From an uncultured delta proteobacterium (GTDB taxonomy: Bacteria; Desulfobacterota; Binatia; UBA9968): a stretch of 64,000 bases of DNA. Position 1 is the stretch's first letter. Every line of letters begins with the position of its first letter. This document shows positions 18,546-44,459 of the stretch, piece by piece. The stretch covers positions 160,001-224,000 of the forward strand of contig CAVUVW010000017.1 in NCBI GenBank assembly GCA_963745035.1, given 5' to 3'. The position numbers and the translations under genes are program-made. The notes under the pieces were generated by a model, which was not told the DNA's origin, made no database searches, and saw nothing but the letters and a program-made list of their open reading frames with translations.

Positions 18546-18583
18546 TGTTCTCATCTCACGCCTTACGCCTCACGGCTCACGGC

Positions 18584-19570: not shown

Positions 19571-19619
19571 AGTTTTCGCTGTTTTCTACGACAACTGATT
19601 ACTGAACACTGGCACTGTT

Positions 19620-21605: not shown

Positions 21606-21662
21606 GGCTTTTTCTCTGTCTCGATCTACTCGACCCTCGACACTCTGACACTCGCCTCCGTC

Positions 21663-22640: not shown

Positions 22641-22693
22641 CGAGTTTCAGTTTCGTCCTGTTGCCTAATGCCTGTTGCCTGATCTGCCTGTTC

Positions 22694-24560: not shown

Positions 24561-24591
24561 CCAATCGTCTGACTTAACCTCTGCCTCTGGC

Positions 24592-25549: not shown

Positions 25550-25628
25550 AACGCCGCCAGATCAAGATTTTGGATTTTAGATTCTGATTGCCGTAACTGA
25601 GCCTGATTTCCTCGTTGTCCTCAATCGA

Positions 25629-26687: not shown

Positions 26688-26731
26688 ACGTTTTTCTCTC
26701 AATCCAAAATCCAAAATCGAAAATCCAAAAT

Positions 26732-27726: not shown

Positions 27727-27768
27727 CTGTTTCACCATCACTCTCTTACGCCTCGACGTGCTCCATTC

Positions 27769-28755
27769 TCACTTGATCACCTTATCCGCTCTCGCCAGCA
27801 CATTGGGAGGAATCGTCAGACCGATCTGCTTCGCCGCTTTCAGATTGATCACCAGCTCGAACTTCGTCGGCTGCTCCACCGGAAGATCGGCGGGCTTGGC
27901 GCCTTTAAGGATCTTGTCGACCATCGAAGCGGCGCGCCTGTAGGGTTCGTCCTGGTCGGCTCCGTACGACATCAAACCCCCGCTTTCGACAAAATCTCCC
28001 CGAAAGTACATCGCCGGCAGCCGGTTTTTTGTCGCCAAGTCCGCGATCAGTTTTTGATGAGAAGTCGCCAACGTGTGCTGCGTCACGGCGAGCGCTGCGC
28101 TACGCGCCTTGATCGCCTCTTTGAACGCGCCCTCGTATTGGTCGGCGCTGCTGACCTCCATGGAATGAAGTTGCAGACCCAGTTCTCGTGCCGGCAGTTG
28201 GCTTTCTTTCCATTGTTGCGCAGCGCCTGGATTTTGTGGATCCCACAGCACCGCAACGCGGGAGAGTTTGGGAACGGTTTCCTTGAGTAACTCCAGCCGT
28301 TTGCCCGCCAAAACCGCCGCAATGTTGGTGAACCCCGTGATATTTCCCCCAGGCCGCGCCAGGCTGTCCACTAGCCCAGCCGCAACGGGATCAGACACGG
28401 CTCCAATAAAAACGATGGGGATCGTCCTGGTAGCGTTCTTGAGAGCCAAGGCCCCATTCCCCCCGGGCGTGAGGAGCACATCAACTTTGAGACGAACCAG
28501 CTCATCAGCCAGGCCCGGGAGCCGGTCGAGCTTATCGTCAGCGGATCGACGCTCGAAAGTTATGTTCTTACCCTCAACATAGCCAAGTTTACGGAACTCT
28601 CGCAGGAATAGATCGATCCTAGCGGTTGAAGCAGCGGACCCGGGTGAGAGCCAGCCGATCTTCGGCATCTTTCCCTGCTGCTGCGCCTCGGCGTGCGAAG
28701 CAAAGCGCAAAGAGCAGGCGCCAAAAGCACAGAAGACCAAGATTCTTTTCTTCAT
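27769..28755 (-). CDS. Array unit U11, open reading frame
   Basis: Track ORF 337 aa; MKKRILV start. Confidence 0.88.
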   Translation of the reverse strand: MKKRILVFCAFGACSLRFASHAEAQQQGKMPKIGWLSPGSAASTARIDLFLREFRKLGYVEGKNITFERRSADDKLDRLPGLADELVRLKVDVLLTPGGNGALALKNATRTIPIVFIGAVSDPVAAGLVDSLARPGGNITGFTNIAAVLAGKRLELLKETVPKLSRVAVLWDPQNPGAAQQWKESQLPARELGLQLHSMEVSSADQYEGAFKEAIKARSAALAVTQHTLATSHQKLIADLATKNRLPAMYFRGDFVESGGLMSYGADQDEPYRRAASMVDKILKGAKPADLPVEQPTKFELVINLKAAKQIGLTIPPNVLARADKVIK

Positions 28756-28802
28756 CTGTTGCACGTCCCTCGTGCCTGACACTCTGACATTCGCTCACCT
28801 TC

Positions 28803-29771
28803 TCATTGATCACCTCGATCCGCTCTCGCCAAAACGTTCGGCGGAATCGTCAGGCCGATCTGCTTGGCTGTTTTTAGATTGATCACCAGTTCGAACTTCG
28901 TCGGCTGCTCCACCGGTAGGTCGGCGGGCTTGGCGCCTTTCAGAATTTTGTCGACATAGGTGGCTGCGCGGCGGAATGAGTCTAGCCGGTTCGCATCGTA
29001 GCTCATCAGAAAACCCGCATCCACGTCGTTGTACATTGCCGGTAAGCGGCTTTTTATCGCTAGCTCCGCAATACGTTTTTGATGAAAATTAACGAACGCT
29101 CCGGATCTCACTATCAAAGCGTCAGCACGCTCTCTGGCCGTGGCTCGAAATGCGTCATCGAGATCATCTGGAGTTCGGACCTCTAAGATTTGCAGTTTGA
29201 GCCCCAACGCCTGGGCCGTTGCTTTGAGCCTCTTTATTAGTGGGGTCCACACGGGTTTCCGGATTAAACAGGATAGCTACGCGGTTAGCTTTGGGAACGG
29301 CCTCTTTAAGGAGCTCTAGCCTTTTCCCAACTAACTCAGATGGGTGGCTGATTAGCCCCGTGATGTTTCCACCCGGCCGCGCGAGGCTCTTGACGAACCC
29401 AAGCCGCACAACATCGCCGCCGTTTGTCATCACAATGGGGATCTCTTTGGTCGCGTTTTTGGCAGCTGCGGTCGCCTCACTTCCGCGGCAACGATAAGGT
29501 CGAGCTTGAGACGGATTAGCTCGGATGCAAGGTTCGGCAGCCGTTCAAGCTTCCCCTCGGCGTATCGGTACTCAATAACGATGTCCTTCCCTCAACGTAA
29601 CCCAGGTCGCGCAGCCCTTGCCGCAATGCGTCGATGCGGGCCGAGAAAGTGGCAGAGGAACCAGGAACAAGAAAACCTAGGTGAGCCTATCTTTGATTGC
29701 TGCGCCGCGGAGAACGAGTAAAGCGCAAAGAGCGTAGCGCAAAGAGTGAGAAACGAGATTGTTTTCTTCAT
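28803..29771 (-). pseudogene. Array unit U12, frameshifted
   Basis: MKKTISFLTLCATLFAL start; fragments 29164-29433, 28803-29252. Confidence 0.8.
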
Positions 29772-29816
29772 GTCTTTTTTCTTATTGCCTAGTGCCTATT
29801 GACAGGTGCCTTGGTG

Positions 29817-29861
29817 TCACTTGATCACCCTGTCCGCCCGCGCCAGCACATTTGCTGGAAT
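29817..29861 (-). other. Orphan 45-nt copy of the conserved unit tail ([14 protein letters not shown])
   Basis: tcacttgatcaccctgtccgcccgcgccagcacatttgctggaat with no SBP body upstream. Confidence 0.85.
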
Positions 29862-29872
29862 CCATCTAAAGA

Positions 29873-30004
29873 AAATCCGAAATCCGAATATCGAAATCCG
29901 AAACAAACGGACGCGAAAGCGGACTTTGAGTTCCCGAGCACCGTTTTAGAGTTTTGCCCTTGGTCGTTTCGATTTGTTTCGAGCTTCGGATTTCGAATTT
30001 CGGG
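29873..30004. repeat. Heptamer-arm inverted repeat element (AAATCCG units)
   Basis: aaatccgaaatccgaatatcgaaatccgaaacaaa ... tttgtttcgagcttcggatttcgaatttcggg. Confidence 0.8.
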
Positions 30005-30015
30005 TTTTAAACAGA

Positions 30016-30998
30016 TCATCGGATTACTTTGTCGGCTCTAGCCAGAACATTGGGCGGAATTGTTAACCCGATCTGCTTGGCGGCTTTGAGATTAATCACC
30101 AGCTCGAACTTCGTCGGCTGCTCGATCGGCAAGTCCGCCGGCTTGGCGCCTTTCAGAATCTTGTCAACATACGTGGCGGCGCGCCGGACAAGTCGCGTAA
30201 TGCTCGCGCCATAGGTCATAAGCCCCCGGCTTCCACAAATTCTCAGTCTGGCTGTATATCGCCGGCAGCCGGTTCTTTGCCGCGAGCTCTACAATCTGTG
30301 TTCGCTGTAAAATTGATAACGGGTTCCCCAACACAAGGACTGCGTCAGCGCGCCCCTTCCTTGCGTCTCGGAATGCAGTCTCAATCTCCTTGGGATCAAG
30401 TACGTCAAGTACTGAAGCTTCACTCCGAACGCGCCTGCGGCCAGTTCCATCTCTCTTAACGACTGCGGGTTGCCCGAGGGTCGAATTCCCGAAAACGGCA
30501 ACGCGGGAGAGCTCCCGGAACGATTTCCTTCAGCAGCTCCAATTGCTTTCCGCTTATCTCCGGCGCAAGAGTTGACAATCCCGTGATGTTCCCGCCAGGC
30601 CGCGCCAAGGCTGGCTACAAGCCCCTTTCCAACCGGATCGAATCCAAGGCCATGACAATGGGAATCGTAGAGGTCGCGTCCTTGGCGGGGCGGGTTGATC
30701 TCGGACCCGCCGTGACGATGACCTCTACCTTGAGATGCACTAATTCAGCCGCCAGGTCAGGAAGCCGATCTTGTCTTTCCCTCGCCAGTTCGAAACTCAA
30801 TGACGATGTCTTTCCCCTCCACATATCCAAGCTCGCGCAGGCCCTGGCGGAATGCCTCGTACCGATCCGAGATAGAGGAATGCGAGGGAGTAGCGAGGAA
30901 TCCTATCCGGGGAATTTTCTTGACTGCTGCGCCTGAACGGACGAACAAAAAGCAAAGAGCATGGCGCAAATCGCAACCGCAGAAATCTCTCGCTTCAT
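30016..30998 (-). pseudogene. Array unit U13 (close relative of U1), frameshifted
   Basis: MKREISAVAICAM start; shares TPSHSSISDRY segment with U1. Confidence 0.8.
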
Positions 30999-31036
30999 TC
31001 TCCTCACCTCACGCCTTACGCCTCGCGACTCACGCC

Positions 31037-32073
31037 TCACCGAATCACCTTATCCGCCCGCGCCAGCACCTTCTGTGGAATCGTCACACCGATCTGTTTG
31101 GCGGTTTTCAGGTTGATCACCATCGTTAATTTTGTCGGGGCTTCAACCGGCAAATCAGCCGGCTTGGCGCCCTTGAGGATCTTGTCCACATACCTCGCGG
31201 CGCGCCGGTACGAATCGCTGGGGTCCCGCCCGTACGATATGAGCCCGCCAGCCTCGGTATCGAGATTCGTTGCCGAAACAACCCGTAGACGGCTTTTGGC
31301 TGCTAACTCCACGAACTGCTTGCGGTGAGCAGAGGGATACCGGGAGGCAGCCGGCTGAGAAGAGCTTCGGCCCGTTCTTTGATCGCAGCTCGAACGGTCT
31401 CGTCGTAGTCTTCCGGTCCCCGAACCAGCAGGGAGATAAGCTCTACTTTCAATCCGCGAGCGGGAACTTCTATCTCTTTGACAAAAAGTTTGTTCGCTGA
31501 GCCAAGCTCACGCGCTTGACCGCCTGGGATCACGAGCGCCACGCGCTTGATCTTCGAATCGATCTCCTTGAGCAGCTCCAGGAGTTTTCCCCCCAGCTCT
31601 CCGCTAATGCTTGTCAGTCCGGTGACGTTTCCACCCGGTCGCGCCAGGCTGGCGACGAGCCCGTTGCCCACAGGATCCGTGGTGGATGTCATGACAATGG
31701 GAATTGTGCCGGTCGCTTTCTTCGCGGCAACGGCCGGTCCAGTGCCATCCCCGATGATCACGTCAACTTTGAGGCGGATGAGGTCGGCAAGAAGGTCAGG
31801 GTACCGATCGCGGTTCGCTTCAGCATAGCGGTACTCGATGACAAGGTTCTTGCCCTCGACGTAACCGAGGTCGCGCAGCCCTTGCCGCAAGGCCTCGATG
31901 TCGGGCGAAGAACGGGGAAATCCCCCCGATAGAACAGCTATCCGGTGAAGTTTCGCCGGCTGCTGCGCCCTGACAGGCAAGCAAAGCGCAAAGAGCATGG
32001 CGCAAAACGCGCAGACAGCAAGTTTCAGTTTCTTGCTGTCGCCTACCGCCTGTTGCCTGTTGCCTGTGATCAT
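31037..32073 (-). pseudogene. Array unit U14, one frameshift near 31310
   Basis: ORFs 31303-32073 and 31037-31312. Confidence 0.82.
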
Positions 32074-32199
32074 CGAATCACCCTATCCGCCTTTGCCAGC
32101 ACGTTGGGCGGAATCGTTAGGCCGATCTGCTTTGCGGTTTTGAGGTTGATGGTCAACTCGAACTTCGTCGACTGCTCCACAGGTAAATCCACGGGCTTT
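32070..32199 (-). other. Orphan ~130-nt copy of the conserved unit tail
   Basis: [42 protein letters not shown]; upstream is the TA promoter, not an SBP body. Confidence 0.85.
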
Positions 32200-32254
32200 T
32201 TGTCTTGGCGTTGTCAGCGGGAAATGCCGTTAACCCACACGCGCGGCAAATCGA

Positions 32255-32283
32255 TTGACGAAAGCCGATGCGGCGTTTAATCT
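32255..32283 (+). promoter_or_regulatory. Putative promoter of TA module 1 (probably leaderless mRNA)
   Basis: TTGACG-17 nt-TAATCT, with ATG 6 nt downstream and no RBS. Confidence 0.55.
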
Positions 32284-32289
32284 CCAACC

Positions 32290-32535
32290 ATGAAGCCCAA
32301 TCATGAGAAAGTCTTGAAAGAGGCGTTGCGTCTTCCCACCGAGGCGCGTGCAGCGCTTGCCGGTCATCTGCTTGAAAGCTTGGATGACACAGTTGATGAG
32401 GATGTTGAATTGGCGTGGGGCAAGGAGATTGCGCGACGCATCGACGATCTAGATCGGGGTAAAGTAAAGACGGTTCTCTGGTCCGTGGCGCGGCGCCAGA
32501 TCCTCGGACGATCCGGTGGCCGCTCCAAGCGTTAG
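32290..32535 (+). CDS. Putative addiction-module antitoxin component
   Basis: ALRLPTEARAALAGHLLESLD...AWGKEIARR...GKVKTVLW pattern; overlaps toxin gene. Confidence 0.85.
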   Translation: MKPNHEKVLKEALRLPTEARAALAGHLLESLDDTVDEDVELAWGKEIARRIDDLDRGKVKTVLWSVARRQILGRSGGRSKR

Positions 32536-32824
32536 ACTCCATCCTGACGCAATCGCTGAGGCAAAGGCGGCTTACGATTGGTATGCTGAACGCAATCCCT
32601 CTGTCGCGAATGCTTTCATCTCTGAACTCGATCACGCCATCAGCCAAATCCAAAAGACTCCGGAGCGGTGGGCCATGCATTTGCGTGGCACGAGAAAGTT
32701 TCTCCTCCGACGTTTCCCGTACGCGGTAGTTTACCGGATCACCCAATCCACCATTCAGGTTATCGCTGTGGCCCATGGGCGCCGCCGTCCCGGCTATTGG
32801 AAGTCGCGGCTTCAAATCGGGTAA
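32516..32824 (+). CDS. RelE/ParE family type II toxin
   Basis: HPDAIAEAKAAYDWY...RRFPYAVVY...VIAVAHGRRRPGYW. Confidence 0.9.
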   Translation: MAAPSVRLHPDAIAEAKAAYDWYAERNPSVANAFISELDHAISQIQKTPERWAMHLRGTRKFLLRRFPYAVVYRITQSTIQVIAVAHGRRRPGYWKSRLQIG

Positions 32825-32847
32825 GTCCATACTGAGATGATCACTGT

Positions 32848-33954
32848 TCACTTGATGACTTGATTCGCCCGCTCCAACACGCGGTTCGGAATTGTCAGGC
32901 CGATCTGTTTCGCTGCTTTAAGGTTGATGACGAATTCAAATTTCGTCGCTTGCTGCACCGGCAAATCAGCCGGTTTGGCACCTTTCAAGATCTTGTCCAC
33001 ATAATCAGCCGCGCGGCGATAGAGGTCATCGAAGTCTGTCCCGTAGGACATCAGGCCGCCCTCATCGACAAACTCCTTCCGCCAGTAAATCGCCGGCAAG
33101 CGGAATTTGACGGCAAGCTCGACGATCCGCTTTCTTTCGGCGAAAAAGAAGGGACCGGCGGTGGTCATAATCGCGCCCACCTGCTTCTGCTTCGCGGTAT
33201 TAAAGGCGCTCTCTAAACCCTTGGCGTCGCGTTGAGTTTCGATCTCCTCCAATTCGAGCTTCAGTGCTAGAGCCGCAGGCCTGAGCGCTTTCATTTGGAG
33301 GTCTACAGCTAAGCTGGTTGTCGACCCCCGCAGAAGACCAACTCGGGCGAGCTTGAGGAACGCGTCCTTGAGTACCTCTAGTCTTTTAGTATTTAACTCC
33401 GGCGCTAGACCCGAGAATCCCGTAACATTGCCTCCCGGCCGCGCCAGATTGACAGCCAGACCGGCACCCACGGGGTCCGAAGCGATCGCCACGATGGGGA
33501 TGGCAGTAGTGGCGCTCTTGGCCGATAACGCCACCGCCGGCGACGTACCCACGATGACATCAACCTTGAGACGGACTAGGTCGGCCGCAAGCTCAGGCAG
33601 GCGCTCTGACTTTTGCTCGGAAAACCGGTACTCGAAGACGATATTTTTTCCTTCGATCCAGCCAAGCTTGCGCAGCTCCTGTCGGAACGCGTCCACGAGG
33701 ACCGCGCTACCGGAAGCAGTGCTGTTATCGAGGAACCCGATGCGGAAAACTTTTCCGGTCTGCTGCGCGTCGACAGAACCGCAAAGCGCAAAGAGCATGG
33801 CGCATAAACTAGAGATCAGAAGTCGCAGGTCAGAGATCGGCTTCAAATCAAAGCGGCAGACGGCACAGAGAAAACGTCCGGCGCTCGGACGCTGATGGTT
33901 CATTCCGGATCTGGGCTTTCTGACCTCTGACATCTGACCGCTGATCTCTGTCAT
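32848..33954 (-). CDS. Array unit U15 (ERANQVIK type), intact, with repeat-derived N-terminal extension
   Basis: 368-aa ORF; MTEISGQMSEVR...PISDLRLLIS is encoded by inverted TCAGAGG-type arms. Confidence 0.88.
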   Translation of the reverse strand: MTEISGQMSEVRKPRSGMNHQRPSAGRFLCAVCRFDLKPISDLRLLISSLCAMLFALCGSVDAQQTGKVFRIGFLDNSTASGSAVLVDAFRQELRKLGWIEGKNIVFEYRFSEQKSERLPELAADLVRLKVDVIVGTSPAVALSAKSATTAIPIVAIASDPVGAGLAVNLARPGGNVTGFSGLAPELNTKRLEVLKDAFLKLARVGLLRGSTTSLAVDLQMKALRPAALALKLELEEIETQRDAKGLESAFNTAKQKQVGAIMTTAGPFFFAERKRIVELAVKFRLPAIYWRKEFVDEGGLMSYGTDFDDLYRRAADYVDKILKGAKPADLPVQQATKFEFVINLKAAKQIGLTIPNRVLERANQVIK

Positions 33955-33960
33955 TTGAGT

Positions 33961-33989
33961 TTGACTTGAATCACCAGCTGCATTATAAA
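33961..33989 (+). promoter_or_regulatory. Putative promoter of TA module 2
   Basis: TTGACT-17 nt-TATAAA; RBS AAGGAG at 34011-34016. Confidence 0.6.
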
Positions 33990-34020
33990 TAACCTCATAA
34001 GTCTTCTAACAAGGAGCATT

Positions 34021-34263
34021 ATGGGAGCAATAGCCGTTTCTAAAAAGGAAGAAGAGCAAATCGAAAGGTTGCGTAAAGACCTGGGGATCGCAAGCAAATC
34101 GGCACTGATCCGCACCGCGCTAAGAACTTTGGAAAAGAAAAGCCAGGAAGAAAAATTACGCCGCGATATCCAGGACTCCGTGAATCGCTGCGGCGCGGCC
34201 GATCGTGAGGAGAACAGAGAACTTTTCAACGCCGGTGTCGCGCGCGCGGATGGGAAGGAGTAA
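34021..34263 (+). CDS. Putative RHH-like antitoxin
   Basis: 80 aa, IERLRKDLGIASKSALIRTAL; directly upstream of PemK toxin. Confidence 0.75.
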   Translation: MGAIAVSKKEEEQIERLRKDLGIASKSALIRTALRTLEKKSQEEKLRRDIQDSVNRCGAADREENRELFNAGVARADGKE

Positions 34264-34608
34264 ATGCCCGTCAAACGGGGGCACTTATACATCATCGATT
34301 TCAATCCTCGCATCAAAACCAAGCCCGGAAAGCTTCGGCCTGGCCTAGTGCTCCAATCCGATCTCGTCAATGAGGCCGAGTATCCGTCGACTATCGTCAT
34401 TCCAACCACGACCCGGCTTGTGGAAAATCCGGGAATTCTTCGAATTCGCCTCAAGAAGGGCCAAGGCGGAGTCTCTCGCGACAGCGATCTACTGTTAGGC
34501 CAAGTGATCGCTGTGGCCAACGAGTCTTTCCGCCACGAGATTGGCTCCTTGCCAAATCCTATGATGGAAGAAGTGGAAAACCGTATCCGCATCATTCTAA
34601 ACTTGTGA
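34264..34608 (+). CDS. PemK/MazF family type II toxin
   Basis: KRGHLYIIDFNP...GKLRPGLVLQSD...STIVIPTTT. Confidence 0.9.
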   Translation: MPVKRGHLYIIDFNPRIKTKPGKLRPGLVLQSDLVNEAEYPSTIVIPTTTRLVENPGILRIRLKKGQGGVSRDSDLLLGQVIAVANESFRHEIGSLPNPMMEEVENRIRIILNL

Positions 34609-34679
34609 GAAATCTCGGCTTGGTTAGTTCTTTGGATTTTCGATTAAAGACCATCTTCCTTACGCCTCGCCCCTCACGC

Positions 34680-35664
34680 CTATCGAATCACCTTATTCGC
34701 TCGCTCAAGCACACGGTTCGGAATTGTCAGGCCGATTTGTTTCGCTGCTTTGAGGTTGATAACGAATTCAAACTTCGTCGCTTGCTGCACCGGCAAATCA
34801 GCCGGTTTGGCACCTTTCAAGATCTTGTCCACGTAAACAGCGGCGCGCCGAAAGAGGTCAGTGTTGTCCGTCCCATACGACATGAGACCTCCCTCATCGA
34901 CAAACCCCTTCTGGGTAAATAGCCGGCAACCGGTATTTGACGGCAAGCTCGACGATCCGCTTTCTTTCTGCGAAAAAGGGGCGGGTGGACATCGTCATAA
35001 TCGCGTTGACCTGCTTTTGCTTTGCCGTTTGAAAGGCGCTCTCTAAACCTTTGGCGTCGGGTTGAGCATCGATCTCCTCCAATTTCAGCTTCAGTGCCAC
35101 AGCGGCAGGCCTGATTTCTTTCAGTTGGAGGTCTCTTCCTACGCTGCCCGTTGTCCCCCGCAGAAACCCAACTCGGGCGAGCTTGGGGACCGAGTCTTTG
35201 AGTACCTCTAGCCTTTTGTGTTTAGCTCGGGCGATAAACTCGACAAGCCGGTGACGTTGCCACCCGGCCGCGCCAGGCTCGCAACCAAGCCTGCACCCAC
35301 AGGGTTCCCAGCGTTCGTCATCACGATGGGGATCGTAGTCGTGGCGCTCTTGGCCGCTAATGCTGCTGGGGTCGCTGCGACCACGATTAGATCAACCTTA
35401 AGACGAACCAGCTCCGCCGCAAGCTCAGGTAGCCGGTCATTTTTCCTCTGCAAATCGGGACTCGATGGTGAGATTCTTTCCCTCGCTCCAGCCAAGCTTG
35501 CTCAGCTCTTGCCGTAACCTCTCCAAGCGGTCCGCGATTCTGGAAGTAATGCTATCATCCAGGTAACCTATGCGGAAGATTTTTCCTGTCTGTTGCGCGT
35601 CGACAGAACCGCAAAGCGCATAGAGCACGGCGCAAAGCGCAATTGCAAAAATCTCTCGTTTCAA
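34680..35664 (-). pseudogene. Array unit U16 (ERANKVIR type), frameshifted
   Basis: MKREIFAIALCAVLYAL start; four fragments in track. Confidence 0.82.
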
Positions 35665-35701
35665 TTTCTCACCTCACGCCTGACGCCTCACCACTCACGC
35701 C

Positions 35702-36733
35702 TCACCGAATCACCCGATCCGCCCGCGCCAACACTTTCTGGGGAATGGTGACGCCAATCTGCTTTGCCGTTTTCAAGTTGATTACCAGTTCAAATTTTGT
35801 CGGCTGCTCGACGGGAAGATCGGCGGGTTTGGCGCCCTTCAGGATTTTGTCCAAGTAAGTGGCTACGCGCCGGTGGCTGTCCTCGAGGTCCGACCCGTAG
35901 GACATGAGCCCACCGGCTTCTACAGCTTCTCTGAACGCATACGTTGATGGTAACCGGCTCTGTATTGCAAAGCCCGCGATCCGTTTTTGGTTGGCTCTCA
36001 TCAGAAGGCTCGAAGTCAAGTAGAGCCCATCCGGGCGCTCCTTGTTGACGGCAGAGAACACCTGGTCAAAACCTTCCGCATCTCGTATTTCCCAAGGCCG
36101 AATCGTCAACTTCAGCGCGCGCGCCGCGACTGGGAGAACCTCTTTCAGCTCGAATGTACTCCCCCGACTGGACGGATCGTAAAGAACCGCGACGCGGGCA
36201 ACTTTGGGAACGGCTTCTTTGAGCAGCTTCAGCCGCTTACCGGCTAGTTCTGGAGAAAGGTTTGTAATGCCGGTGACGTTGCCCCCGGGACGCGCAAGGT
36301 TTTCAATTAGCCCTGCCTCGACAGGATCGAGCCCTTGGCCCAACAGAACGATGGGTATTGTGCTGGTCGCATTCTTGGCCGCGCGGATCACTGCGGTCCC
36401 TCCTGCGGCCACAAGAATATCCATCTTGAGACGCACCAACTCGGCCGCTAGCTCCGGGAGCCGATCGACCTTTCCCTCCGCATAACGGTATTCGATGGCG
36501 ATGTTCCGTCCTTCTATATAGCCGAGCTCGCGCAGAGCCAGCCGAATGGCCTCGGCACGGGCAGACTCATTAGTGGGGTCGCCCGCCGATAAATAGCCTA
36601 ACCGCGAGGTTTTCTTCGCCTGCTGCGCGTTAGCGGACGGGCAAAGCGCAAAGAGCACGGCGCAAAACGCGCAGACAACGAGTTTCAGTTTCTTACTGTT
36701 GCCTACCGCCTGTTGCCTGTTGCCTGTGATCAT
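35702..36733 (-). CDS. Array unit U17, intact
   Basis: 343-aa [14 protein letters not shown] leader. Confidence 0.9.
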   Translation of the reverse strand: MITGNRQQAVGNSKKLKLVVCAFCAVLFALCPSANAQQAKKTSRLGYLSAGDPTNESARAEAIRLALRELGYIEGRNIAIEYRYAEGKVDRLPELAAELVRLKMDILVAAGGTAVIRAAKNATSTIPIVLLGQGLDPVEAGLIENLARPGGNVTGITNLSPELAGKRLKLLKEAVPKVARVAVLYDPSSRGSTFELKEVLPVAARALKLTIRPWEIRDAEGFDQVFSAVNKERPDGLYLTSSLLMRANQKRIAGFAIQSRLPSTYAFREAVEAGGLMSYGSDLEDSHRRVATYLDKILKGAKPADLPVEQPTKFELVINLKTAKQIGVTIPQKVLARADRVIR

Positions 36734-37725
36734 CGAATCACTTTATCCGCGCTGGCCAGCACGTTTTGCGAGATCGTGAGGCCTAGCTGTTTCGCCGTCT
36801 TCAGATTGATCACCAGCTCGAACTTCGTCGGCTGCTCCACTGGAAGGTCTGCGGGCTTGGCGCCCTTTAGGATCTTGTCGACATAAGTGGCGGCGCGCCT
36901 GAAACTTTCCGTATCGCTGGATGAATAGGACATGAGGCCACCGGCCTCGACGTACTGTCTGTCCTCGTGTATTGAAGGCAGTCGGTTCTTTACGGCAAGG
37001 GCCGCAATCCGCTTTGGGTAACTTGCGGCCAGCGGACCGGTAACCGAAATGATCGCGCTCGCGCGCCCCTTGGTCGCGGCTTGGAATGCTGCCTCGTAAT
37101 CAGGATTCGGACCGCGCACCTCTAGGAATAAAAACTGCATCTTTAGTGCGCGCGCCGCAGCCTCATAATCTTTGAAAGCAATAGCCACCGCCGAGCTGCT
37201 CGCCTCTCCAAGGACTCCGACGCGCGATATCCCGGGAACCGCTTCTTTGAGCAGTTCTAGCCGCTTTCCGCTCAATTCTCGGATGAGGCCGGTGAGCCCG
37301 GTAATGTTCCCGCCGGGGCGCGCTAGGCTATCGATTAGCCCAGTGGCGACTGGATCCTGAGTTGTCACCATGACAATGGGAGTCGTCTTGGTCGCCTCCT
37401 TGGCTGCGCGGATCGCTGATAGAGATCTAACGACAAGCACATCGACCTTGAGTTGCACGAGTTCGGCCACTTGGTTTGTAATCCGGTCAGGCTTTCCTTC
37501 ACCGTAGCTATACTCGATCAGGATGTTTTTCCCCTCAATGTAACCGAGATCTCGCAGCCCTTGCCGGAATGCTTCGGCGAACGGATGGGGAGAGGTGGGG
37601 GTGGGGCTGACCCTTTGCGCCAGAAATCCTATGCGAGGTACTTTTCCTGTCTGCTGCGCCTCGACAAGAGAAGTAGTTGCCAGAAAGAGAGTTGCTAGCA
37701 GCCTGAGAGTGATTCTCTTGTTCAT
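36730..37725 (-). CDS. Array unit U18, intact
   Basis: 331-aa ORF with signal peptide. Confidence 0.9.
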   Translation of the reverse strand: MNKRITLRLLATLFLATTSLVEAQQTGKVPRIGFLAQRVSPTPTSPHPFAEAFRQGLRDLGYIEGKNILIEYSYGEGKPDRITNQVAELVQLKVDVLVVRSLSAIRAAKEATKTTPIVMVTTQDPVATGLIDSLARPGGNITGLTGLIRELSGKRLELLKEAVPGISRVGVLGEASSSAVAIAFKDYEAAARALKMQFLFLEVRGPNPDYEAAFQAATKGRASAIISVTGPLAASYPKRIAALAVKNRLPSIHEDRQYVEAGGLMSYSSSDTESFRRAATYVDKILKGAKPADLPVEQPTKFELVINLKTAKQLGLTISQNVLASADKVIR

Positions 37726-37763
37726 ATTTTTCTCTTACTCACGCCTCAGCCTGCTGCCTGTTT

Positions 37764-38788
37764 TCACTTGATCACTCTATCCGCCCGCGCCAGCACACTC
37801 GGCGGAATCGTCAGACCGATTTGCCTGGCCGCCTTGATATTGATGACCAACTCGAATTTCGTCGGTTGCTCCACCGGAAGGTCTGCCGGCTTTGCGCCTT
37901 TAAGAATCTTGTCGACATAGGTCGCCGCGCGCCGGGACAAGTCAATAAAGCTTGTGGCATAACTGACCAGGCCGCCGGCTTCGACAAATTCATCCCGTCC
38001 GTACGTCGCCGGGAATTTGTTCTTCGCTGCGAACTCGACGATCCGATTTCTGTGTGCGTTCATCAGCGGACCGCCAGCGATCATCAATCCACCGGGGCGC
38101 CATTTCATGATCGCTTGGAATTGACTATCGAAGTCTTCGGCCTTTGCCAGTTCGAACCTTTGCGTTTGTACGTTTAGCACTCGGGCGGTTGGCTCTATCT
38201 CGTCCACGCCGATCCCTTCGGTGACGTTCGTCAAATCCCTTAAAACCGCCACACGCGAGAGCTTGGGAGTAATTTCTTTAAGCAGCTCCAATCGCTTGTC
38301 ACCGAGATCCCCGCTGACATTCGTAAGCCCCGTGATATTTCCAGCCGGCCGCGCGAGACTGCTGACAAATCCCGACGCCACCGGATCGTTGTCCGACATC
38401 ATGACGATGGGAATCGTAGTGGTCGCTTCTTTGGCAGGGCGGGTCGCTGAACTTCCCGTCGTGACAATCACATCGACGTGGAGATGGACCAGCTCGGCGG
38501 CAAGCTTGGTCATTCGCTGGGCGTCGTTGTCCGCGAAGCGGTAATCGATGGTAATGTTTTGTCCCTCGATGTATCCCAGCTTTCGTAGTGCCTCTCGAAA
38601 TGCTTCGACACGATCTTTTTGAACCGTTGCCCGGTTGAGAGAAAGGAACCCGACTCGGGAATCTTTTTCGCAGACTGCTGCGCCTCGGCGGACGAGCAAA
38701 ACGCAAGGATCACGGCGCAAAGAACGCAAGCAGCGAGCTTCAGATTCCTACTGTTGCCTACCGCCTGTTGCCTGTTGCCTGTGATCAT
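37764..38788 (-). pseudogene. Array unit U19, one frameshift near 38660
   Basis: Leader in 38510-38788 frame, body in 37764-38729 frame. Confidence 0.82.
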
Positions 38789-39759
38789 CGAATCACCCGA
38801 TCCGCCCGCGCCAGCACACTCGGCGGGATGGTCAAGCCGATCTGCTTGGCAGCCTTGAGATTGATAACCAACTCGAACTTCGTCGGCTGCTCCACCGGCA
38901 AGTCGGCGGGTTTGGCACCCTTCAGAATTTTGTCGACGTAGACCGCAGCGCGCTGGAACAACGCTGGGAAGCTCGTGCCGTAAGACATAAGGCCGCCGGC
39001 TTCCACGTACTCCGTGAAGCTGTACATTGCCGGGAGTTTCTGCCTGGCCACCGCTTCTGTGATCAGCTTCCGGTTAAAGAAGATCAATGGATCCGGAAGC
39101 TCGAAGAGTGCCTGCGGTCGGTCCTTCCCAATGCCGGATAAAACCTTTTGAATCTCTTCCTGGTTTCGCGCCTCCAGGGAAATCAATGTAACTTTCAGCG
39201 CCTGCGCTTCGGTCAGACTTTCCTTGTACGCGGCCTGTTGACCCGGCTGGTTCGGGTTCCAGAGAACGGCCACGCGCGAGAGGCGTGGAACAACTTCCTT
39301 CAGTAACTCGAGCCGTTTCCCGGTCAAATCCGGAGCGATATGCGTCAGCCCAGTTATGTTTCCTCCGGGCTTCGCCAGGCTGGCGACGAATCCCGATCCT
39401 ACGGGGTCGGTGACTCCCGCCATGATGATCGGGATCGAGCTGGTTTGTTCCTTGGCGAACCGGATCGCAGGAGTAGCCGAAGAAACGATGACATCGACTT
39501 TGAGGCGAACAAAGTCGGCGACGAAGCCTGGCAAACTTTCCAACTTGCCGTCGGCCCAGCGGTACTCGATCACGATGTTGTGTCCGTCCACGTACCCAAG
39601 CTCGCGCAGCCCCTGTACAAACGCGGTAGCATGATGCCCCGCAGTGGCTTGGGAACCGGCTCCCACATAACCGATCTTTTTCGCTGGCTGCGCCAGGGCC
39701 ACCGCCCCACAGGGGGCCAGAGTCACAAAGATTGCAAACAGTCCAACGAAGCGTTTCAT
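38785..39759 (-). CDS. Array unit U20, intact
   Basis: 324-aa ORF. Confidence 0.9.
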   Translation of the reverse strand: MKRFVGLFAIFVTLAPCGAVALAQPAKKIGYVGAGSQATAGHHATAFVQGLRELGYVDGHNIVIEYRWADGKLESLPGFVADFVRLKVDVIVSSATPAIRFAKEQTSSIPIIMAGVTDPVGSGFVASLAKPGGNITGLTHIAPDLTGKRLELLKEVVPRLSRVAVLWNPNQPGQQAAYKESLTEAQALKVTLISLEARNQEEIQKVLSGIGKDRPQALFELPDPLIFFNRKLITEAVARQKLPAMYSFTEYVEAGGLMSYGTSFPALFQRAAVYVDKILKGAKPADLPVEQPTKFELVINLKAAKQIGLTIPPSVLARADRVIR

Positions 39760-39766
39760 ACCCCGC

Positions 39767-40165
39767 CTATTTTAGATTTCCGATTTTAGATTGCCGATTG
39801 ATCGGAGGATTTCCGTTGCGGTTCTGAAGAGTTCTTATTGATGCTACCGTCATTGCGATGATCTCGTTGGTTTCTTGCAACAACTCCGACAGCCTGGCCT
39901 CAGGTACAAGCCCCGATTCAATCAGTAGTTCCATCCAGTAGGCTGACTCGTCTGCTTCTTCTTCAACTATCCGAAGCTTAGCGATCACATCCGCAGTGGA
40001 CTTGCCGCGACACGCTGCTCGATAGTTAGCGCCGATCGAAGTGCCGGATCGGATCAACTGTCTACCGATCACGTCCGCGGTTCGGTTCTTCGGTAGCGCG
40101 TCGACGACTTTGATGATGCGTAAAGCTAGCTGCTTTGTGCGCTTCTTGAATACGTTTTCATCCAT
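39767..40165 (-). CDS. Four helix bundle protein (23S rRNA IVP-like / Avd-like fold family)
   Basis: FKKRTKQLALRII...GRQLIRSGTSIGANYRAACRGKS...AKLRIVEEEADESAYWMELL. Confidence 0.92.
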   Translation of the reverse strand: MDENVFKKRTKQLALRIIKVVDALPKNRTADVIGRQLIRSGTSIGANYRAACRGKSTADVIAKLRIVEEEADESAYWMELLIESGLVPEARLSELLQETNEIIAMTVASIRTLQNRNGNPPINRQSKIGNLK

Positions 40166-40211
40166 GTATTTTCTCGGCCAATCGAAAATCGGCAATCGAA
40201 AATCGAAAATG

Positions 40212-41257
40212 TCATTTAATGACTTTGTCCGCCCGCGCCAGCACACTCGGCGGAATCGTCAGACCGATTTGCTTGGCCGCCTTGATATTGATGATCAGAT
40301 CGAACTTCGTGGGCTGCTCGACAGGCAGATCGCCTGGCTTGGCGCCTTTCAAAATCTTGTCCACATACGTTGCGGCGCGCCGGTCCAAGATCGGTGATGC
40401 TTGCGCCGTAGCTCATTAACCCCCCGTTGTCGACAATTGTCGAATTGTAGTAAATCGCCGGCAGCCGGTTCTTTACCGCGAGGTCCGGAATCCCTCGGGA
40501 AAAGTTGCCGGGGAAGTTCAGCACGAGGACTGCATCCGCTCGCTCCTTGCTCGCGGTTCGTAATGCAGCCTCGATATCCTTTGAATCTCGTATGTCCAAA
40601 TATTGAATCTGCACGCCGAGCGCGCTCGCCGCGAGTTCCGTCTCTCTTAGCGATTGCGAATTGCCGGGGTTGTTAGACATACCGAGGACCGCCACGCGAG
40701 AGAGCTTGGGAACAATCTCCCTCAGAATCTCCAGTCGTTTTCCGCTTATCTCCTGGGCAAGGTTAGACAATCCCGTAATGTTTCCGCCGGGTCGCGCCAG
40801 GCTGGCGACGAACCCGTTCCCAACAGGATCGCTATCCTGCGTCATGACAATGGGAATCGTAGTGGTTGCTTGCTTGACGGCGCGGGTTGCTGTGGGACCA
40901 CCGGTGACGATGACGTCTACCTTGAGACGCACCAGCTCGGCTGCAAGCGCGGGGAGGCGATCGATTTTTCCCTCGGCAGATCGCCACTCAATGACAATGT
41001 TTTTCCCCTCGACATAACCAAGTTCACGCAGTCCCTGCCGGAATGCCTCCTGCGAACCGCTGCACTGCCGGAACGGGAGTCGGCAGTTAGATAACCTATG
41101 CGCGAAATTTTCTTCGGCTGCTGCGCCGCGGCCACCGCCCCACACATTGCGAATGCGACAGCGAGAGCAACAATCCCCACCAATTTTCGATTTTGGATTT
41201 TAGATTTTCGATTGTCGGAGCAGAGAAAGCAAAGCGCATTCGAGATGTCTTGTGCAT
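40212..41257 (-). pseudogene. Array unit U21, frameshifted
   Basis: AATCG-arm leader; body 40216-41145. Confidence 0.82.
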
Positions 41258-41294
41258 TTGTTTTTCTCCGTAATCGAAAATCGGCAATCTAAAA

Positions 41295-42342
41295 TCACTT
41301 AATAACTTTGTCCGCCCGCGCCAGCACGTTCGGCGGAATCGTCAGGCCGATCTGCTTAGCGGCATTCATATTGACGAGGAACTCGAACTTCGTCGCCTGC
41401 TGTACCGGCAAGTCGGCCGGTTTGGCGCCTTTCAAGATCTTGTCGACAAAGTCAGCGGCGCGCCGCCATAAGTCCGTATTGTCTGGCCCGTAGCTCATCA
41501 AGCCGCCGGCCTCAACAAACTCACTGTAGTGGTAGATCGCCGGCAACCGGTTCTTTGCCGCGAAGTCCAACACTTGGCGTTGCTGAGTATTGATAAGTGC
41601 ACCTGTGGTCGTAATGAGCGCCTGGGCGCGTTCCTTTTTCGCTCGTGCGAATGCGCCCTCAAAATCGTCAAGGCTTCGCACCTCCAGCGATAGAAGTTTG
41701 AGTCCCAACGCCTTGGCCGCAGCCTCCATATCTGTGAGGGCCAGGTTTCCCCTCGTTCCACCCGGTTCCCAGAGGAAGGCCACCCGGGCAACCTTAGGGA
41801 AGGCTTCCTTGAGCAGCTCCAACCGTTTGCCATCTAGATCTGGCACCATGAGACTAAGACCGGTGATATTCCCGCCTGGTTGCGCCAGGCTGGAGACAAG
41901 CCCAGTTCCTACTGGATCGGAAGCAGCGGCGAATACGATGGGAATCGTCGCGCTCGCCTTCTTGGCAGCTAATGTAGCGCCGGGGCCGGCTGGTGACGAT
42001 GACGTCAACTTTGAGACGGACCAGTTCGGCTGCAAGGTCAGGCAGCCGTTCGCCTTTCCCTTCTGCATAACGGTACTCAATGACAATGTTTTTTCCTTCG
42101 ACATAGCCAAGCTCGCGCAGCCCTTGGCGAAATGCTTCGACCCGGGCCGAGAGGAAGGACGCGGAGGACGGGATCAGAATTCCTATCCGGTGAATTCTCG
42201 CCGGCTGCTGCGCCTGAACCACCGCCCCGCCAAACGTGACCGCGAGGACGATTGCAAAGAGCCCCGCCCATTTTCGATTTTCGATTTTGGATTCTTAGAT
42301 TGTTGGTCGAATAGACTTCGATCCAAAGATCACTTTCTGCAT
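41295..42342 (-). pseudogene. Array unit U22, frameshifted
   Basis: Fragments 41854-42222 and 41295-42110. Confidence 0.82.
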
Positions 42343-42367
42343 TGCTCTTCTCGCCTCATCCAAAATT

Positions 42368-43429
42368 CTACCGAATGACCCGATCCGCCCGCGCCAGCAC
42401 GCTTCGGCGGTATCGTCGAGGCCGATCTGTTTCGCCGTCTTCTGATTGATCACCAGCTCAAACTTCGTCGGCTGCTCCACGGGGAGATCGGCAGGCTTGG
42501 CTCCCTTCAGGATTTTGTCCACGTAGGTGGCTGCGCGCCGGTAGCTGTCCGCGACGTCCGCCCCGTAGGACATGAGCCCACCGGCATCTACAGCTTCTCT
42601 GGTGTAGTACATCGACGGTAACCGACTCTTTAACGCAAAGCCCGCGATCCGTTTTTGATTAGCAGTCATTAGCGGGCCCGCGATGACGTAGAGTCCATCC
42701 GGGCGCTCCTTATTCAGCCCAGCGAATACCTTCTCGAAACCGTCCGCAGCTCGTGCTTCCGAAGGCTGAATAGTCAACCCCAGCGCACGCGCTGCGACTG
42801 GGAGATCCAATTTTACCTCGAGTACACTGGGCCGATTGGCCGACTCGTAGAGAACCGCGACACGGGCAACTTTGGGAACGGCTTCTTTGAGCACCTCCAG
42901 CCGCTTCCCGCCTAGTTCTCTGGAAAGGGTTGTAAGGCCGGTGACGTTGCCGCCGGGACGGGCAAGGCTTTCAACTAGGCCCGCCTCGACAGGATCGGCC
43001 GAAAGGCCCATCATAACTATGGGAATCGTCTTGGTCGCATTCTTGGCCGCCCGGATCATTCGTGATCCCTCCTGGTACCACGATGAGATCAACCTTGAGA
43101 CGCACGAGCTCGGCCGCAAGCTCAGGGAGCCGATCGACCTTCCCCTCCGTATATCGGTATTCGAAGGCGATGTTCTGTCCTTCTATGTAGCCAAGCTCGC
43201 GCAGAGCCAGCCGAAATGGCTCGGCACGGACGGACTCAGTAGCTGCATCGATCCCCGATAGATACCCTATCCGCTGGACTTTCTTCGCCTGCTGCGCCTG
43301 AGCCACAGCCCCACAAATTGCGAATGCGACAGCGAGAGCAAAGATCCCCACCAATTTTCGATTTTCGATTTTCGATTTTCGATTGCCGGAACAAGAATCG
43401 GAAACTCGCTTCGTCGAAAATACTTTCAT
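42368..43429 (-). pseudogene. Array unit U23, frameshifted
   Basis: MKVFSTKRVSDSCSGNRKSKIENRKLVG leader; fragments 42971-43459, 42295-43119. Confidence 0.82.
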
Positions 43430-43475
43430 GCGTCTTCTCACGTAATCGAAAATCGGCAATCGAAAATCAAAAATG

Positions 43476-44459
43476 TCATCTTATGACGCGATCCGCTCTC
43501 GCCAGCACATTGGGTGGAATCGTCAGGCCGATTTGCTTGGCCGCTTTGAGGTTGATCACCAGCTCAAATTTAGTTGGCTGCTCGACAGGCAAATCGGCGG
43601 GCTTCGCGCCTTTAAGAATTTTGTCTACGTACGTGGCGGCGCGCCGGAACAAGTCGGTAAAACTGACGCCGTAGCTCATAAGCCCTCCGTTTCCCACCCA
43701 CTCGGAGTGCCAGTAAATGACTGGGAGCCGGCTCTCTACCGCGAGTTCTGCAACCTGTGTTCGATGAGAATTGAGGATGGAGCTCGGCAGCACGAGGACT
43801 GCGTCAGCACGTCCTTTGCTAGCGGCTCGGAATGCAGTCCCAATATCCTTTGGACCTAGTACGTCTAGGGATTGAAGCTGCACGTTGAGCGCTTCAGTGG
43901 CCAGTTCCGTTTCTCGTAACACTTGTGCGTTGCCTGGTTCGGTCGAGTTGCCGAGGACACCCACGCGGGAGAGTCTAGGAACAGTCTCCTTCAGAAGCTC
44001 CAGTCGTTTCCCGCTTAAGTCTGAGGAGAGGTTCGACAATCCCGTGATGTTATTACCAGGCCGCGCCAGGCTGGCGACGAATCCATTGCCCACCGGATCG
44101 GTATCCTGCGCCATGACGATGGGAATCGTAGAAGTTGCTTCCTTGATGGGACGGGTTGATTGCGGTCCACCCGAGACGACGATGTCAACCTTGAGACGCA
44201 CTAGTTCAGCCGCGATCGCGGGCAGCCGATCAAATTTTCCCTCTGCATAGCGCCACTCAATCACAATGTTTTTCCCCTCTATGTACCCAAGCTCGTGCAG
44301 TCCCCGCCGGAAGGCCTCGGTGCGGGCGACGTTCGTGGCAGGGGAGCCAGCAGTTAGGTATCCAATCCGAGCAACTTTCGCCGGCTGCTGCGCCTGAGCG
44401 GACGAGCAAAGCGCATAAAGCATGGCGCAAAGGGTCAGACGAAGAGAGTTTTTCCTCAT
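43476..44459 (-). CDS. Array unit U24 (first in transcription order), intact
   Basis: MRKNSLRLTLCAMLYAL start behind AAGGA; no repeat element upstream. Confidence 0.9.
   Translation of the reverse strand: MRKNSLRLTLCAMLYALCSSAQAQQPAKVARIGYLTAGSPATNVARTEAFRRGLHELGYIEGKNIVIEWRYAEGKFDRLPAIAAELVRLKVDIVVSGGPQSTRPIKEATSTIPIVMAQDTDPVGNGFVASLARPGNNITGLSNLSSDLSGKRLELLKETVPRLSRVGVLGNSTEPGNAQVLRETELATEALNVQLQSLDVLGPKDIGTAFRAASKGRADAVLVLPSSILNSHRTQVAELAVESRLPVIYWHSEWVGNGGLMSYGVSFTDLFRRAATYVDKILKGAKPADLPVEQPTKFELVINLKAAKQIGLTIPPNVLARADRVIR

What the first reader, a model, noticed from the sequence alone, without database searches (positions are those of the whole stretch)
39767..40214. Four-helix-bundle gene is the 'filled' form of the inverted-repeat element that forms SBP leaders
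Seen on the plus strand: the FHB start context is cat-14nt-aatcgaaaatcggcaatcgaaaatcgaaaatgtca (40163-40214). The U23 leader has cat-14nt-aatcgaaaatcggcaatcgaaaatcaaaaatgtca (43427-43478), and U21 has the same 14-nt spacing (41255-41297). On the coding strand the FHB ends ...AAT CTA AAA TAG GCG GGG, matching leaders ...AAT CGA AAA TTG GTG GGG (U23) and AAA TGG GCG GGG (U22). The same two arms thus enclose either a 132-aa FHB gene or ~60 nt that reads through into the signal peptide. Inference: these leaders are internally deleted relatives of an FHB-carrying element, and FHB may bind or mobilise the heptamer arms.
Basis: partly seen in the sequence, partly recalled or inferred. Interest (0 to 1): 0.82.

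Follow-up and report, generated by a model that had tools for sequence, protein, structure and literature searches.

The report
Repeat cassette turned signal peptide
In a family of uncultured soil bacteria, a small gene flanked by mirror-image 7-base repeats has a gene-less twin that is now read as the start and export signal of secreted binding proteins, and this start module is swapped between related and even unrelated proteins.

Summary
Observation confirmed. The four-helix-bundle gene (FHB; TIGR02436/PF05635) and the SBP leaders are one element. They share the arms, the 14-nt spacer, the T[A/G]G-GCG-GGG end and the signal-peptide class, so this is not low-complexity chance. The empty form is translated: 51 of 64 leaders are in frame, and 1 of 38 has a stop against 22% expected. 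The right arm codes the basic n-region. The leader is independent of the mature SBP on either side and also sits on TctC- and NMT1-family proteins. At one orthologous kinase-regulator junction (57 genomes classified), two FHB subfamilies with their own arm words, a DUF559 gene, deleted copies and empty arms alternate, so deletion and replacement both happen. Whether the window's copy is ancestral or refilled is unresolved: the FHB-remnant signal inside leaders is weak. FHB binding or mobilising the arms is not shown; no integrase or intact RT was found. Other SBP signal peptides here also carry 7-base periodicity (z 12-18). This scan has noted FHB plus heptamer arms on other DNA (67 findings). 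The signal-peptide reuse and shuffling were not in those notes or in my ten paper searches.

The parts
39767..40165 (-). Four-helix-bundle gene (132 aa), last 10 codons encoded by the right arm
   Evidence: TIGR02436 91.9 bits; PF05635 67.5 bits; PDB 2rld E 1.6e-18; clade dN/dS 0.07
40180..40210 (-). Left arm of the filled cassette (four ATTTTCG-type heptamers), starting 1 nt after the upstream SBP stop at 40212-40214
40166..40179 (-). 14-nt spacer with ribosome-binding site, homologous to the leaders' spacer
   Evidence: profile test
39769..39799 (-). Right arm of the filled cassette (AATC-type heptamers)
39757..39769 (-). TAG GCG GGG T ATG: FHB stop, G-rich end shared with leaders, own start codon of the next SBP
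38785..39759 (-). PF04392 substrate-binding protein whose signal peptide is of the leader class
43354..43478 (-). U23 empty element: left arm 43444-43474, ATG 43427-43429, 15 codons, right arm 43354-43384 read as NRKSKIENRK, in frame with the signal peptide
41183..41297 (-). U21 empty element (ATG 41255-41257; 1 nt short of frame as assembled)
42270..42368 (-). U22 empty element, left arm decayed, in-frame TAA in the leader, no significant hairpin
26611..26734 (-). U26 empty element (ATG 26685-26687; 1 nt off frame as assembled)
17420..17551 (-). Hybrid junction: GTGAGGC-type left arm with a TCCGAC-AATC-type right arm
17549..43478 (-). Tandem PF04392 array; most other junctions start with heptamer runs of other words (GGCAACA at 38785, 36730, 32070; GTGAGGC at 35702, 31037; CAGTAGT at 20619)

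Best explanation
The element is a heptamer-armed operon-junction cassette, built like an ORF-bearing 23S rRNA intervening sequence but lying in mRNA: left arm, ribosome-binding site, passenger gene, right arm. SHOWN: such cassettes sit right behind stop codons, each FHB subfamily has its own arm word, and at one orthologous site cassettes replace one another and lose parts of their interior. SHOWN: the empty AATC form is translated in frame as start codon plus 15 codons plus an arm-encoded K/R-rich n-region ahead of an h-region. SHOWN: this module is independent of the flanking mature SBPs and also heads TctC and NMT1 proteins. INFERRED: the empty form arose from an FHB cassette by loss of about 107 codons, read-through of the stop (TAG to TGG) and loss of the SBP's own start. 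INFERRED: it spread by ordinary recombination, using the conserved SBP 3' end on one side and short homology at the AxA-Q cleavage site on the other. INFERRED function, on RNA: the arms fold a 25-30-bp stem that encloses the ribosome-binding site and start codon, and a ribosome ending the upstream gene opens it, coupling translation along the array (my odds 0.45). The alternatives are RNase III cutting (0.3) and a tolerated relic (0.25). FHB is a conserved passenger, probably an Avd-like nucleic-acid-binding pentamer (family knowledge), not the enzyme that moves the cassette.
For: Homology beyond the repeats. Frame kept in 51 of 64 leaders and open in 49 of 64; stops in 1 of 38 against 21.7% expected; ATG-to-cleavage lengths cluster at 132, 156, 120. 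Leader label needs 37 changes on a tree of 181 SBPs against 36.4 when shuffled. Among 29 pairs at 80% or more identity: 2 both armed, 12 mixed, 15 neither. Independent of the upstream SBP too. Seven filled loci: FHB 87%, signal 82%, mature start 58% identical. Leader on TctC and NMT1 proteins whose more distant homologues have plain signals. Orthologous kinase-regulator site: 10 FHB-A, 10 FHB-B, 6 DUF559, 5 B-arm remnants, deleted copies L337, L373, L369; arm word A 12/13 vs 0/13, B 0/10 vs 8/10. CCGAC before the right arm in 20 of 38 leaders and 9 of 24 sister FHB cassettes. In 4 of 9 clade FHBs a 7-9-nt in-frame direct repeat joins the two ends, and deletion across it leaves exactly 45 nt. 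Left arm starts 0-1 nt after the upstream stop in 23 of 31 junctions. Hairpin z -2.7 to -3.8 for three window leaders. RNase III is present.
Against: The FHB remnant is weak. The best deletion product scores 2.7 against the leaders, internal segments reach 3.1, and leaders score 11.4 against each other. The informative sub-window (codons 3-8) was chosen after looking, and the control profile also ranks position 330 at 8-31. No clean AATC-type empty element was seen at the kinase-regulator site. Short arm pairs occur in 74 of 90 family genomes but the filled end in only 6 of 90, which fits a later refill. The variable heptamer positions do not covary between arms (z -2.5), and the RBS-tail pairing is no better within a copy than between copies, so selection on the RNA stem is not shown. 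No RNA-level data. Paralogues are not independent, so all z values overstate.
Confidence: 0.55

Rival explanations
1. Refill. The translated leader is old, and the window's form arose later when an FHB body from a sister AATC-armed cassette recombined into it. A stop codon and a new SBP start then separated the two proteins. The leaders would not be deletions of this form.
For: Leaders are family-wide and only 55% identical in their interior. The SBP-linked FHB clade is narrow (89% aa identity; filled end in 6 of 90 genomes). L380 shows an FHB-A cassette lying inside the remains of an FHB-B cassette. The clade's tail resembles the leader more than most sisters' tails do.
Against: It does not explain why leader codons 3-8 match both FHB ends in 24 sister and 142 distant FHBs (ranks 1-4 of 420), nor the shared CCGAC. 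No FHB-leader intermediate lacking the new ATG was found; the only FHB-SBP fusion among 21 longer proteins is one sequence that looks frameshifted. dS 0.66 within the clade means it is not very young. It can coexist with the best explanation (old deletion, later refill).
Confidence: 0.27
2. FHB recognises its own arm word (as RNA or ssDNA) and, alone or with a host or trans enzyme, drives copying or exchange of armed modules. Leaders are non-autonomous elements, like MITEs, and the SBP array is an actively shuffled library.
For: Arm word tracks FHB subfamily with no exception at one site. Cassette states are interleaved on the regulator tree. FHB is under strong purifying selection (dN/dS 0.07). 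The family is homologous to the DGR accessory protein Avd (PMC10053308, passages).
Against: No integrase or transposase among the ORFs scanned near the array. The only RT match in the genome is a broken one inside a group II intron. No target-site duplication or fixed boundary was seen by eye. No contig joint skips the FHB cleanly among the rows listed (94 joints were not shown). 6 of 160 armed loci have the arms in swapped order. DUF559 occupies the same site with different repeats. Co-inheritance explains the word match.
Confidence: 0.13
3. The arms are independent low-complexity heptamer runs that arise at gene junctions by slippage, and the FHB-leader likeness is chance.
For: Heptamer repeats are common in some bacteria and cluster near gene starts (PMC4679880, passages). 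Non-coding AATC hairpins without ATG also occur in this family.
Against: Non-repeat parts are shared. The reversed-pattern control gave 0 matches in 90 genomes. 160 of 174 FHB loci are armed against 6 of 150 random windows.
Confidence: 0.05

Closest known systems
ORF-bearing 23S rRNA intervening sequences (S23p/IVP; Coxiella burnetii, PMC4990558, passages read)
   Same: Same protein family (PF05635), similar size (about 430-450 nt), terminal inverted repeats forming a stem of about 28 bp. The paper reports heptamer repeats beside the ORF, RNase III cutting in the stem, and a 176-bp ORF deletion in one strain.
   Different: Lies between protein-coding genes, not in rRNA. Both arms are heptamer arrays. 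The ORF is under purifying selection here (dN/dS 0.07). The empty form is translated into a signal peptide. Excision not tested.
Bacterial heptanucleotide repeats (TAACTGA repeats of Beggiatoaceae, PMC4679880, passages; Nostoc heptamer repeats, 10.1101/2022.06.06.494920, abstract; the name STRR is recalled)
   Same: Degenerate 7-base tandem runs at gene junctions, near starts and overlapping stops, sometimes at protein ends; a role in translation has been proposed.
   Different: Here they are paired as inverted arms, tied to FHB subfamilies, and read as signal-peptide segments. The passages searched in PMC4679880 held no 'signal peptide', 'helix bundle' or 'intervening'.
Avd of diversity-generating retroelements (PMC10053308, passages)
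   Same: Structural homologue of PF05635; the FHB-B subfamily also hits PF22296 bAvd below its cut-off.
   Different: No RT, template repeat or variable repeat beside it; no intact RT found in the genome.
MITEs, and palindromic elements inside coding genes such as Rickettsia RPE (both recalled, not checked by a call)
   Same: Short inverted-repeat derivative of a gene-bearing element; repeat DNA ends up inside proteins.
   Different: No transposase and no target-site duplication seen; the element supplies the start codon and part of the export signal rather than inserting into a domain.
Integron cassette arrays (recalled)
   Same: Head-to-tail array with hairpin-forming junctions and signs of reshuffling.
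   Different: No integrase found near the array. What varies independently is the junction, including the signal peptide, not a gene bounded by attC sites.

Membership tests
Four-helix-bundle protein family (TIGR02436 / PF05635) | Score above the curated cut-off over the whole model | tested here: met
   91.9 bits vs 24; 67.5 vs 33.8
Four-helix-bundle protein family (TIGR02436 / PF05635) | Four-helix fold, pentameric ring | tested here: inconclusive
   Sequence match to PDB 2rld, 5 chains; single-sequence model pLDDT 46, unusable
ORF-bearing 23S rRNA intervening sequence | Located inside an rRNA gene | tested here: not met
   Lies between two PF04392 genes
ORF-bearing 23S rRNA intervening sequence | Terminal inverted repeats closing a long stem around the ORF | tested here: met
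   (arms form the closing stem; whole-cassette z only -0.7)
ORF-bearing 23S rRNA intervening sequence | Excision by RNase III | not testable with these tools
   RNase III gene present; only contigs, no raw RNA reads
DGR (Avd-dependent) | Adjacent reverse transcriptase with template and variable repeats | tested here: not met
   Only RT match is a broken group II intron RT on another contig
MITE / insertion sequence | Cognate transposase | tested here: inconclusive
   None among the ORFs scanned near the array; no genome-wide transposase search was run
MITE / insertion sequence | Target-site duplication and fixed ends | tested here: inconclusive
   None seen by eye; no formal test
Integron cassette array | Integron integrase beside the array, attC sites | tested here: not met
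   No integrase family among the 33 ORFs scanned; attC not modelled
Sec signal peptide | Basic n-region, hydrophobic h-region, AxA cleavage site in frame with the mature protein | tested here: met
   By sequence pattern in 49 of 64 leaders; no signal-peptide predictor was run
Sec signal peptide | Export and cleavage in the cell | not testable with these tools
   Needs fractionation or N-terminal sequencing

The most novel reading that the evidence does not exclude
Heptamer-armed FHB cassettes are a general source of bacterial start-and-secretion modules. Several arm families have become n-regions (AATC type) or h-regions (LCAML- and LLT-type) of most signal peptides in these arrays. FHB pentamers recognise their own arm word and promote exchange of the modules, giving a recombinase-free system that re-addresses and re-tunes secreted receptors.
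Probability: 0.13. Interest if true: 0.9.

Novelty: new variant of a known kind. Interest (0 to 1): 0.66.

Why it matters
It shows a route by which non-coding repeat DNA becomes a protein-targeting signal in bacteria, and a start/signal module that moves between unrelated secreted families. It links two long-unexplained things, the PF05635 protein family and bacterial heptamer repeats. It also gives two test systems. One is filled against empty forms of one cassette. The other is a single orthologous site with two FHB subfamilies and their own arm words, which makes the binding-specificity question a simple 2x2 experiment. In practice it explains odd, long N-termini (NRKSKIENRK) and uncertain start calls in these genomes.

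Tried and rejected
1. Global-alignment test for FHB remnants in leaders: not better than the best internal segments. 2. Covariation between arms at variable heptamer positions, 60 leaders: none, z -2.5. 3. Copy-specific RBS-tail pairing: own copy no better than other copies, 15 of 34. 4. Idea that the SBP plus its downstream junction is the duplicated unit: rejected, the junction is independent of both neighbours. 5. Idea that h-region repeats are right arms of sampled FHB cassettes: not supported, 9.2 against 9.1-10.4 controls using 35 arms from 70 loci; left parts did match FHB left arms, 13.4 against about 10.8. 6. Cross-table of left-arm family by h-region family: regexes left most rows unclassified, uninformative. 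7. Read laying (4 of 22 listed runs, contigs only): no clean FHB-skipping joint in the rows shown, 94 joints not shown; one RNA-library contig covers U23 but may be DNA; U21, U22 and U26 frame breaks not covered. 8. FHB-SBP fusion search: 21 longer proteins, none with PF04392; P0001 is a single, probably frameshifted sequence. 9. Structure prediction without alignment: pLDDT 46, discarded; no fold search or complex job was run. 10. FHB tree: only the quick tree finished, 40 of 72 inner branches open, cannot root the direction. The clade was picked as top hits, so its 89% identity is biased upward. 11. One search had a faulty pattern and was redone. 12. In one search, 2 of 59 loci were dropped (L366, L369), and L353 was labelled 'emptyA' but is a frameshifted FHB-A; L380 'partial' is a full, frameshifted copy. 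13. Paper searches found no description of FHB arms in mRNA or of arm-derived signal peptides. PMC10392669 (passages) was irrelevant. No supplements were read, and subscription papers are not searched.

Full report
1. Observation. The 132-aa ORF at 39767-40165 (-) is a TIGR02436/PF05635 four-helix-bundle protein (FHB), with a solved relative, 2rld. It lies in a tandem array of PF04392 substrate-binding protein (SBP) genes. Inverted arms of 24-31 nt enclose it and the short leaders U21, U23 and U26. A contig from an independent run matches 39412-40257 without a difference. As assembled only U23 is open into its signal peptide; U21 and U26 are 1 nt off frame and U22 has a TAA. The closest FHB in genome contigs (92%) is titled Candidatus Binatia (L021); I use that class name for the group.

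2. One element, not chance. I collected arm pairs from the own genome and 175 loci in all (1.18 Mb outside the genome), de-duplicated by sequence. A profile of the 13 non-repeat bases before the ATG scores leaders 8.3 (leave-one-out, n=32), the SBP-linked FHB clade 7.05 (n=11), other SBP starts 0.8 (n=84), sister FHBs -3.4 (n=24) and distant FHBs -8.1 (n=144). A profile of the last 33 nt of the signal peptide scores leaders 15.6, filled forms 9.7 (12 of 13 above the 95th percentile of others) and 115 other SBPs -16.8. Arm frame and the T[A/G]G GCG GGG end agree. The filled form differs by the FHB body, TAG for TGG, and about 19-21 bases that give the SBP its own ATG. Short AATC arm pairs occur in 74 of 90 family genomes, with 0 matches for the reversed pattern; some of these are non-coding hairpins. 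The filled end occurs in 6 of 90. More widely, 160 of 174 distinct FHB loci have inverted arms better than all 50 shuffles, against 6 of 150 random windows, and 10 of 12 tested FHBs in the own genome are armed, nearly all with different words.

3. The empty form is coding. Of 61 SBP-linked pairs with a 50-70-nt interior, 38 have a start codon exactly 45 nt before the right arm. Of 64 leaders, 51 are in frame with the AxA-Q site and 49 are also open. Stops occur in 1 of 38 interiors against 21.7% expected from column frequencies, and in 29 and 19 of 38 in the other frames. The arm reads as NRKSKIE/NPKSKIQ, a basic n-region ahead of the h-region. Export and cleavage are inferred from this pattern only.

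4. The module moves. On a tree of 181 intact mature SBPs the 40 leader-bearing ones need 37 changes, against 36.4 for shuffled labels. Among 29 pairs at 80% identity or more (one a duplicate record), 2 are both armed, 12 mixed and 15 neither, close to the 2.0, 11.3 and 15.7 expected from independence (my arithmetic). The junction is as independent of the upstream SBP, whereas segments within the mature protein are correlated (r 0.28-0.58). Seven filled loci share 87% of FHB DNA, 82% of the signal and only 58% (47-85%) of the first 300 mature bases. The same leader heads a TctC clade (7 of 146 hits armed; the listed hits at 62% or less have plain signals) and two NMT1 proteins whose 67% homologues have plain signals. 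P0002, from another organism, shows FHB, arm and a lipoprotein-like signal in one frame (single sequence).

5. A natural experiment. A single-copy regulator gene was found in 59 of 90 genomes, and I examined the junction between it and the upstream kinase; 57 were classified and 2 dropped. The counts were 10 FHB of the window's subfamily (A), 3 labelled partial A, 1 mislabelled frameshifted A (L353), 10 of a second subfamily (B; PF05635), 6 DUF559 including the own genome, 5 B-arm remnants, 19 none or other, and 3 rearranged. A goes with AATC arms (12 of 13; 0 of 13 CCTTAC) and B with CCTTAC arms (8 of 10; 0 of 10 AATC). The states are interleaved on the short, weakly resolved regulator tree. 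L337 and L373 have lost parts of A, L369 keeps only residues 80-118 of B between both arms, and L380 holds A inside the remains of B. Deletion and replacement therefore both occur. No clean AATC-type empty element was seen at this site.

6. Direction at the SBP junction is open. For deletion: leader codons 3-8 rank FHB positions 330 and 9, its two ends, 1st and 2nd of 420 in the clade and in 24 sisters, and 4th and 1st in 142 distant FHBs. A control profile from other SBP starts ranks them 31/96, 8/55 and 20/63. CCGAC precedes the right arm in 20 of 38 leaders and 9 of 24 sisters. In 4 of 9 clade genes an in-frame 7-9-nt repeat links the two ends, and deletion across it leaves 45 nt. Against: the sub-window was chosen after looking, the register is off by one codon, and by global alignment the best deletion product (2.7) does not beat the best internal segments (3.1). 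Leaders are old and widespread while the filled form is rare, and L380 shows that refilling happens. L322 joins a leader start, what reads by eye as an SBP fragment, and the FHB tail, an array-scale deletion. I put the origin of leaders by deletion from an FHB cassette at about 0.55-0.6 and a refill for this copy at about 0.3.

7. Beyond the finding. The other SBP junctions are heptameric too. In 115 non-AATC junctions the first 40 nt after the stop have lag-7 identity 0.47 (other lags 0.25-0.29, lag 14 0.44), and the mature region has none. In 107 de-duplicated h/c-regions lag 7 is 0.382 against 0.273 after codon shuffling (z 17.9) and 0.314 after synonymous recoding (z 12.4). In 131 other signal peptides of the genome it is 0.26. 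It is individually significant in 39 of 107 against 1 of 131. Each left part is more complementary to its own h-region than to others (z 5.7, 0 of 5000 permutations; direct repeats z 1.2). The left parts resemble left arms of other FHB subfamilies, but the h-regions did not match the 35 right arms sampled, so their FHB origin is not shown. Paralogues share ancestry, so these z values overstate.

8. How it works. The left arm starts 0-1 nt after the upstream stop in 23 of 31 junctions. Three of four window leaders fold into hairpins (z -2.7 to -3.8) that enclose the ribosome-binding site and ATG. The simplest function is translational coupling: a terminating ribosome opens the stem. RNase III is present, and cutting would free the FHB message in the filled form but sever the SBP start in the empty form. 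Against selection on the stem: no covariation and no copy-specific RBS pairing. FHB is under purifying selection (dN/dS 0.07, dS 0.66, 36 pairs) and is an Avd homologue (PMC10053308, passages). But the only RT match in the genome is a broken intron RT and no integrase turned up among the ORFs scanned near the array, so I treat it as a passenger with a probable nucleic-acid-binding role.

9. Known and new. The Coxiella IVS has the same protein, a 28-bp stem, heptamers and RNase III cutting (PMC4990558, passages). Heptamer runs near gene starts are described without a settled function (PMC4679880, passages; 10.1101/2022.06.06.494920, abstract). This scan has noted FHB with heptamer arms in 67 findings, including one between a kinase and its regulator. 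Arm-derived, portable signal peptides and cassette swapping at one orthologous site were not found in ten paper searches or in one word search of the scan's notes. Subscription papers and supplements were not seen.

10. Verdict. Real, a new variant of an IVS-like cassette, with a well-supported reuse as a mobile start-and-signal module. The direction of origin and any active role of FHB remain open. Interest 0.66.

Noticed in passing
G000 C13:1773819-1796930: Cluster of about 11 FHB genes or pieces with two other arm words (CGTGAT-type, AAGGATA-type).
   Followed up: no
G000 C13:1787389-1789429: What looks like a group II intron, with a broken RT, interrupts an FHB gene; the two FHB halves flank it.
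   Followed up: partly
G000 C14:421931-422424 (L348): DUF559 gene with CCCTCTCCC-type palindromes, behind an AATC-type left arm, occupies the kinase-regulator junction that holds FHB cassettes in relatives.
   Followed up: partly
L098, L126, L128, L129, L143, L310; G000 C2:10219, C2:20273, C14:408717: A short palindrome (CTGAGC...GTCGAAG type, about 24-60 nt) is often inserted in frame inside the right arm of leaders.
   Followed up: no
L143, L016, L282; G000 C2:7228, C2:11376, C2:15712, C14:394206: A lone right arm after an SBP stop is followed by a second copy of the last ~45 nt of the SBP gene, a duplication that may mark recombination events.
   Followed up: no
L005, L006, L189, L191: An empty element starting with the same nine bases as the FHB lies directly upstream of a filled one.
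   Followed up: no
L156, L149, L003: The gene after FHB starts at or near the FHB stop and reads through an arm, so arms also enter N-termini of sensor and regulator proteins.
   Followed up: partly
L038, L046, L063, L069, L072, L095: FHB loci with the two arms in swapped order.
   Followed up: no
window 34264-34608: PemK/MazF-like toxin-antitoxin toxin gene inside the SBP array.
   Followed up: no
window 38656 and 39675; many SBP genes 17500-43500: Independent contigs differ by one base at these places, so some of the array's frameshifts may be assembly errors.
   Followed up: partly
L123, L129: An empty element ending in TAG before an SBP with its own start (L123), and a right-arm-only filled-type end (L129): possible intermediates.
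   Followed up: partly
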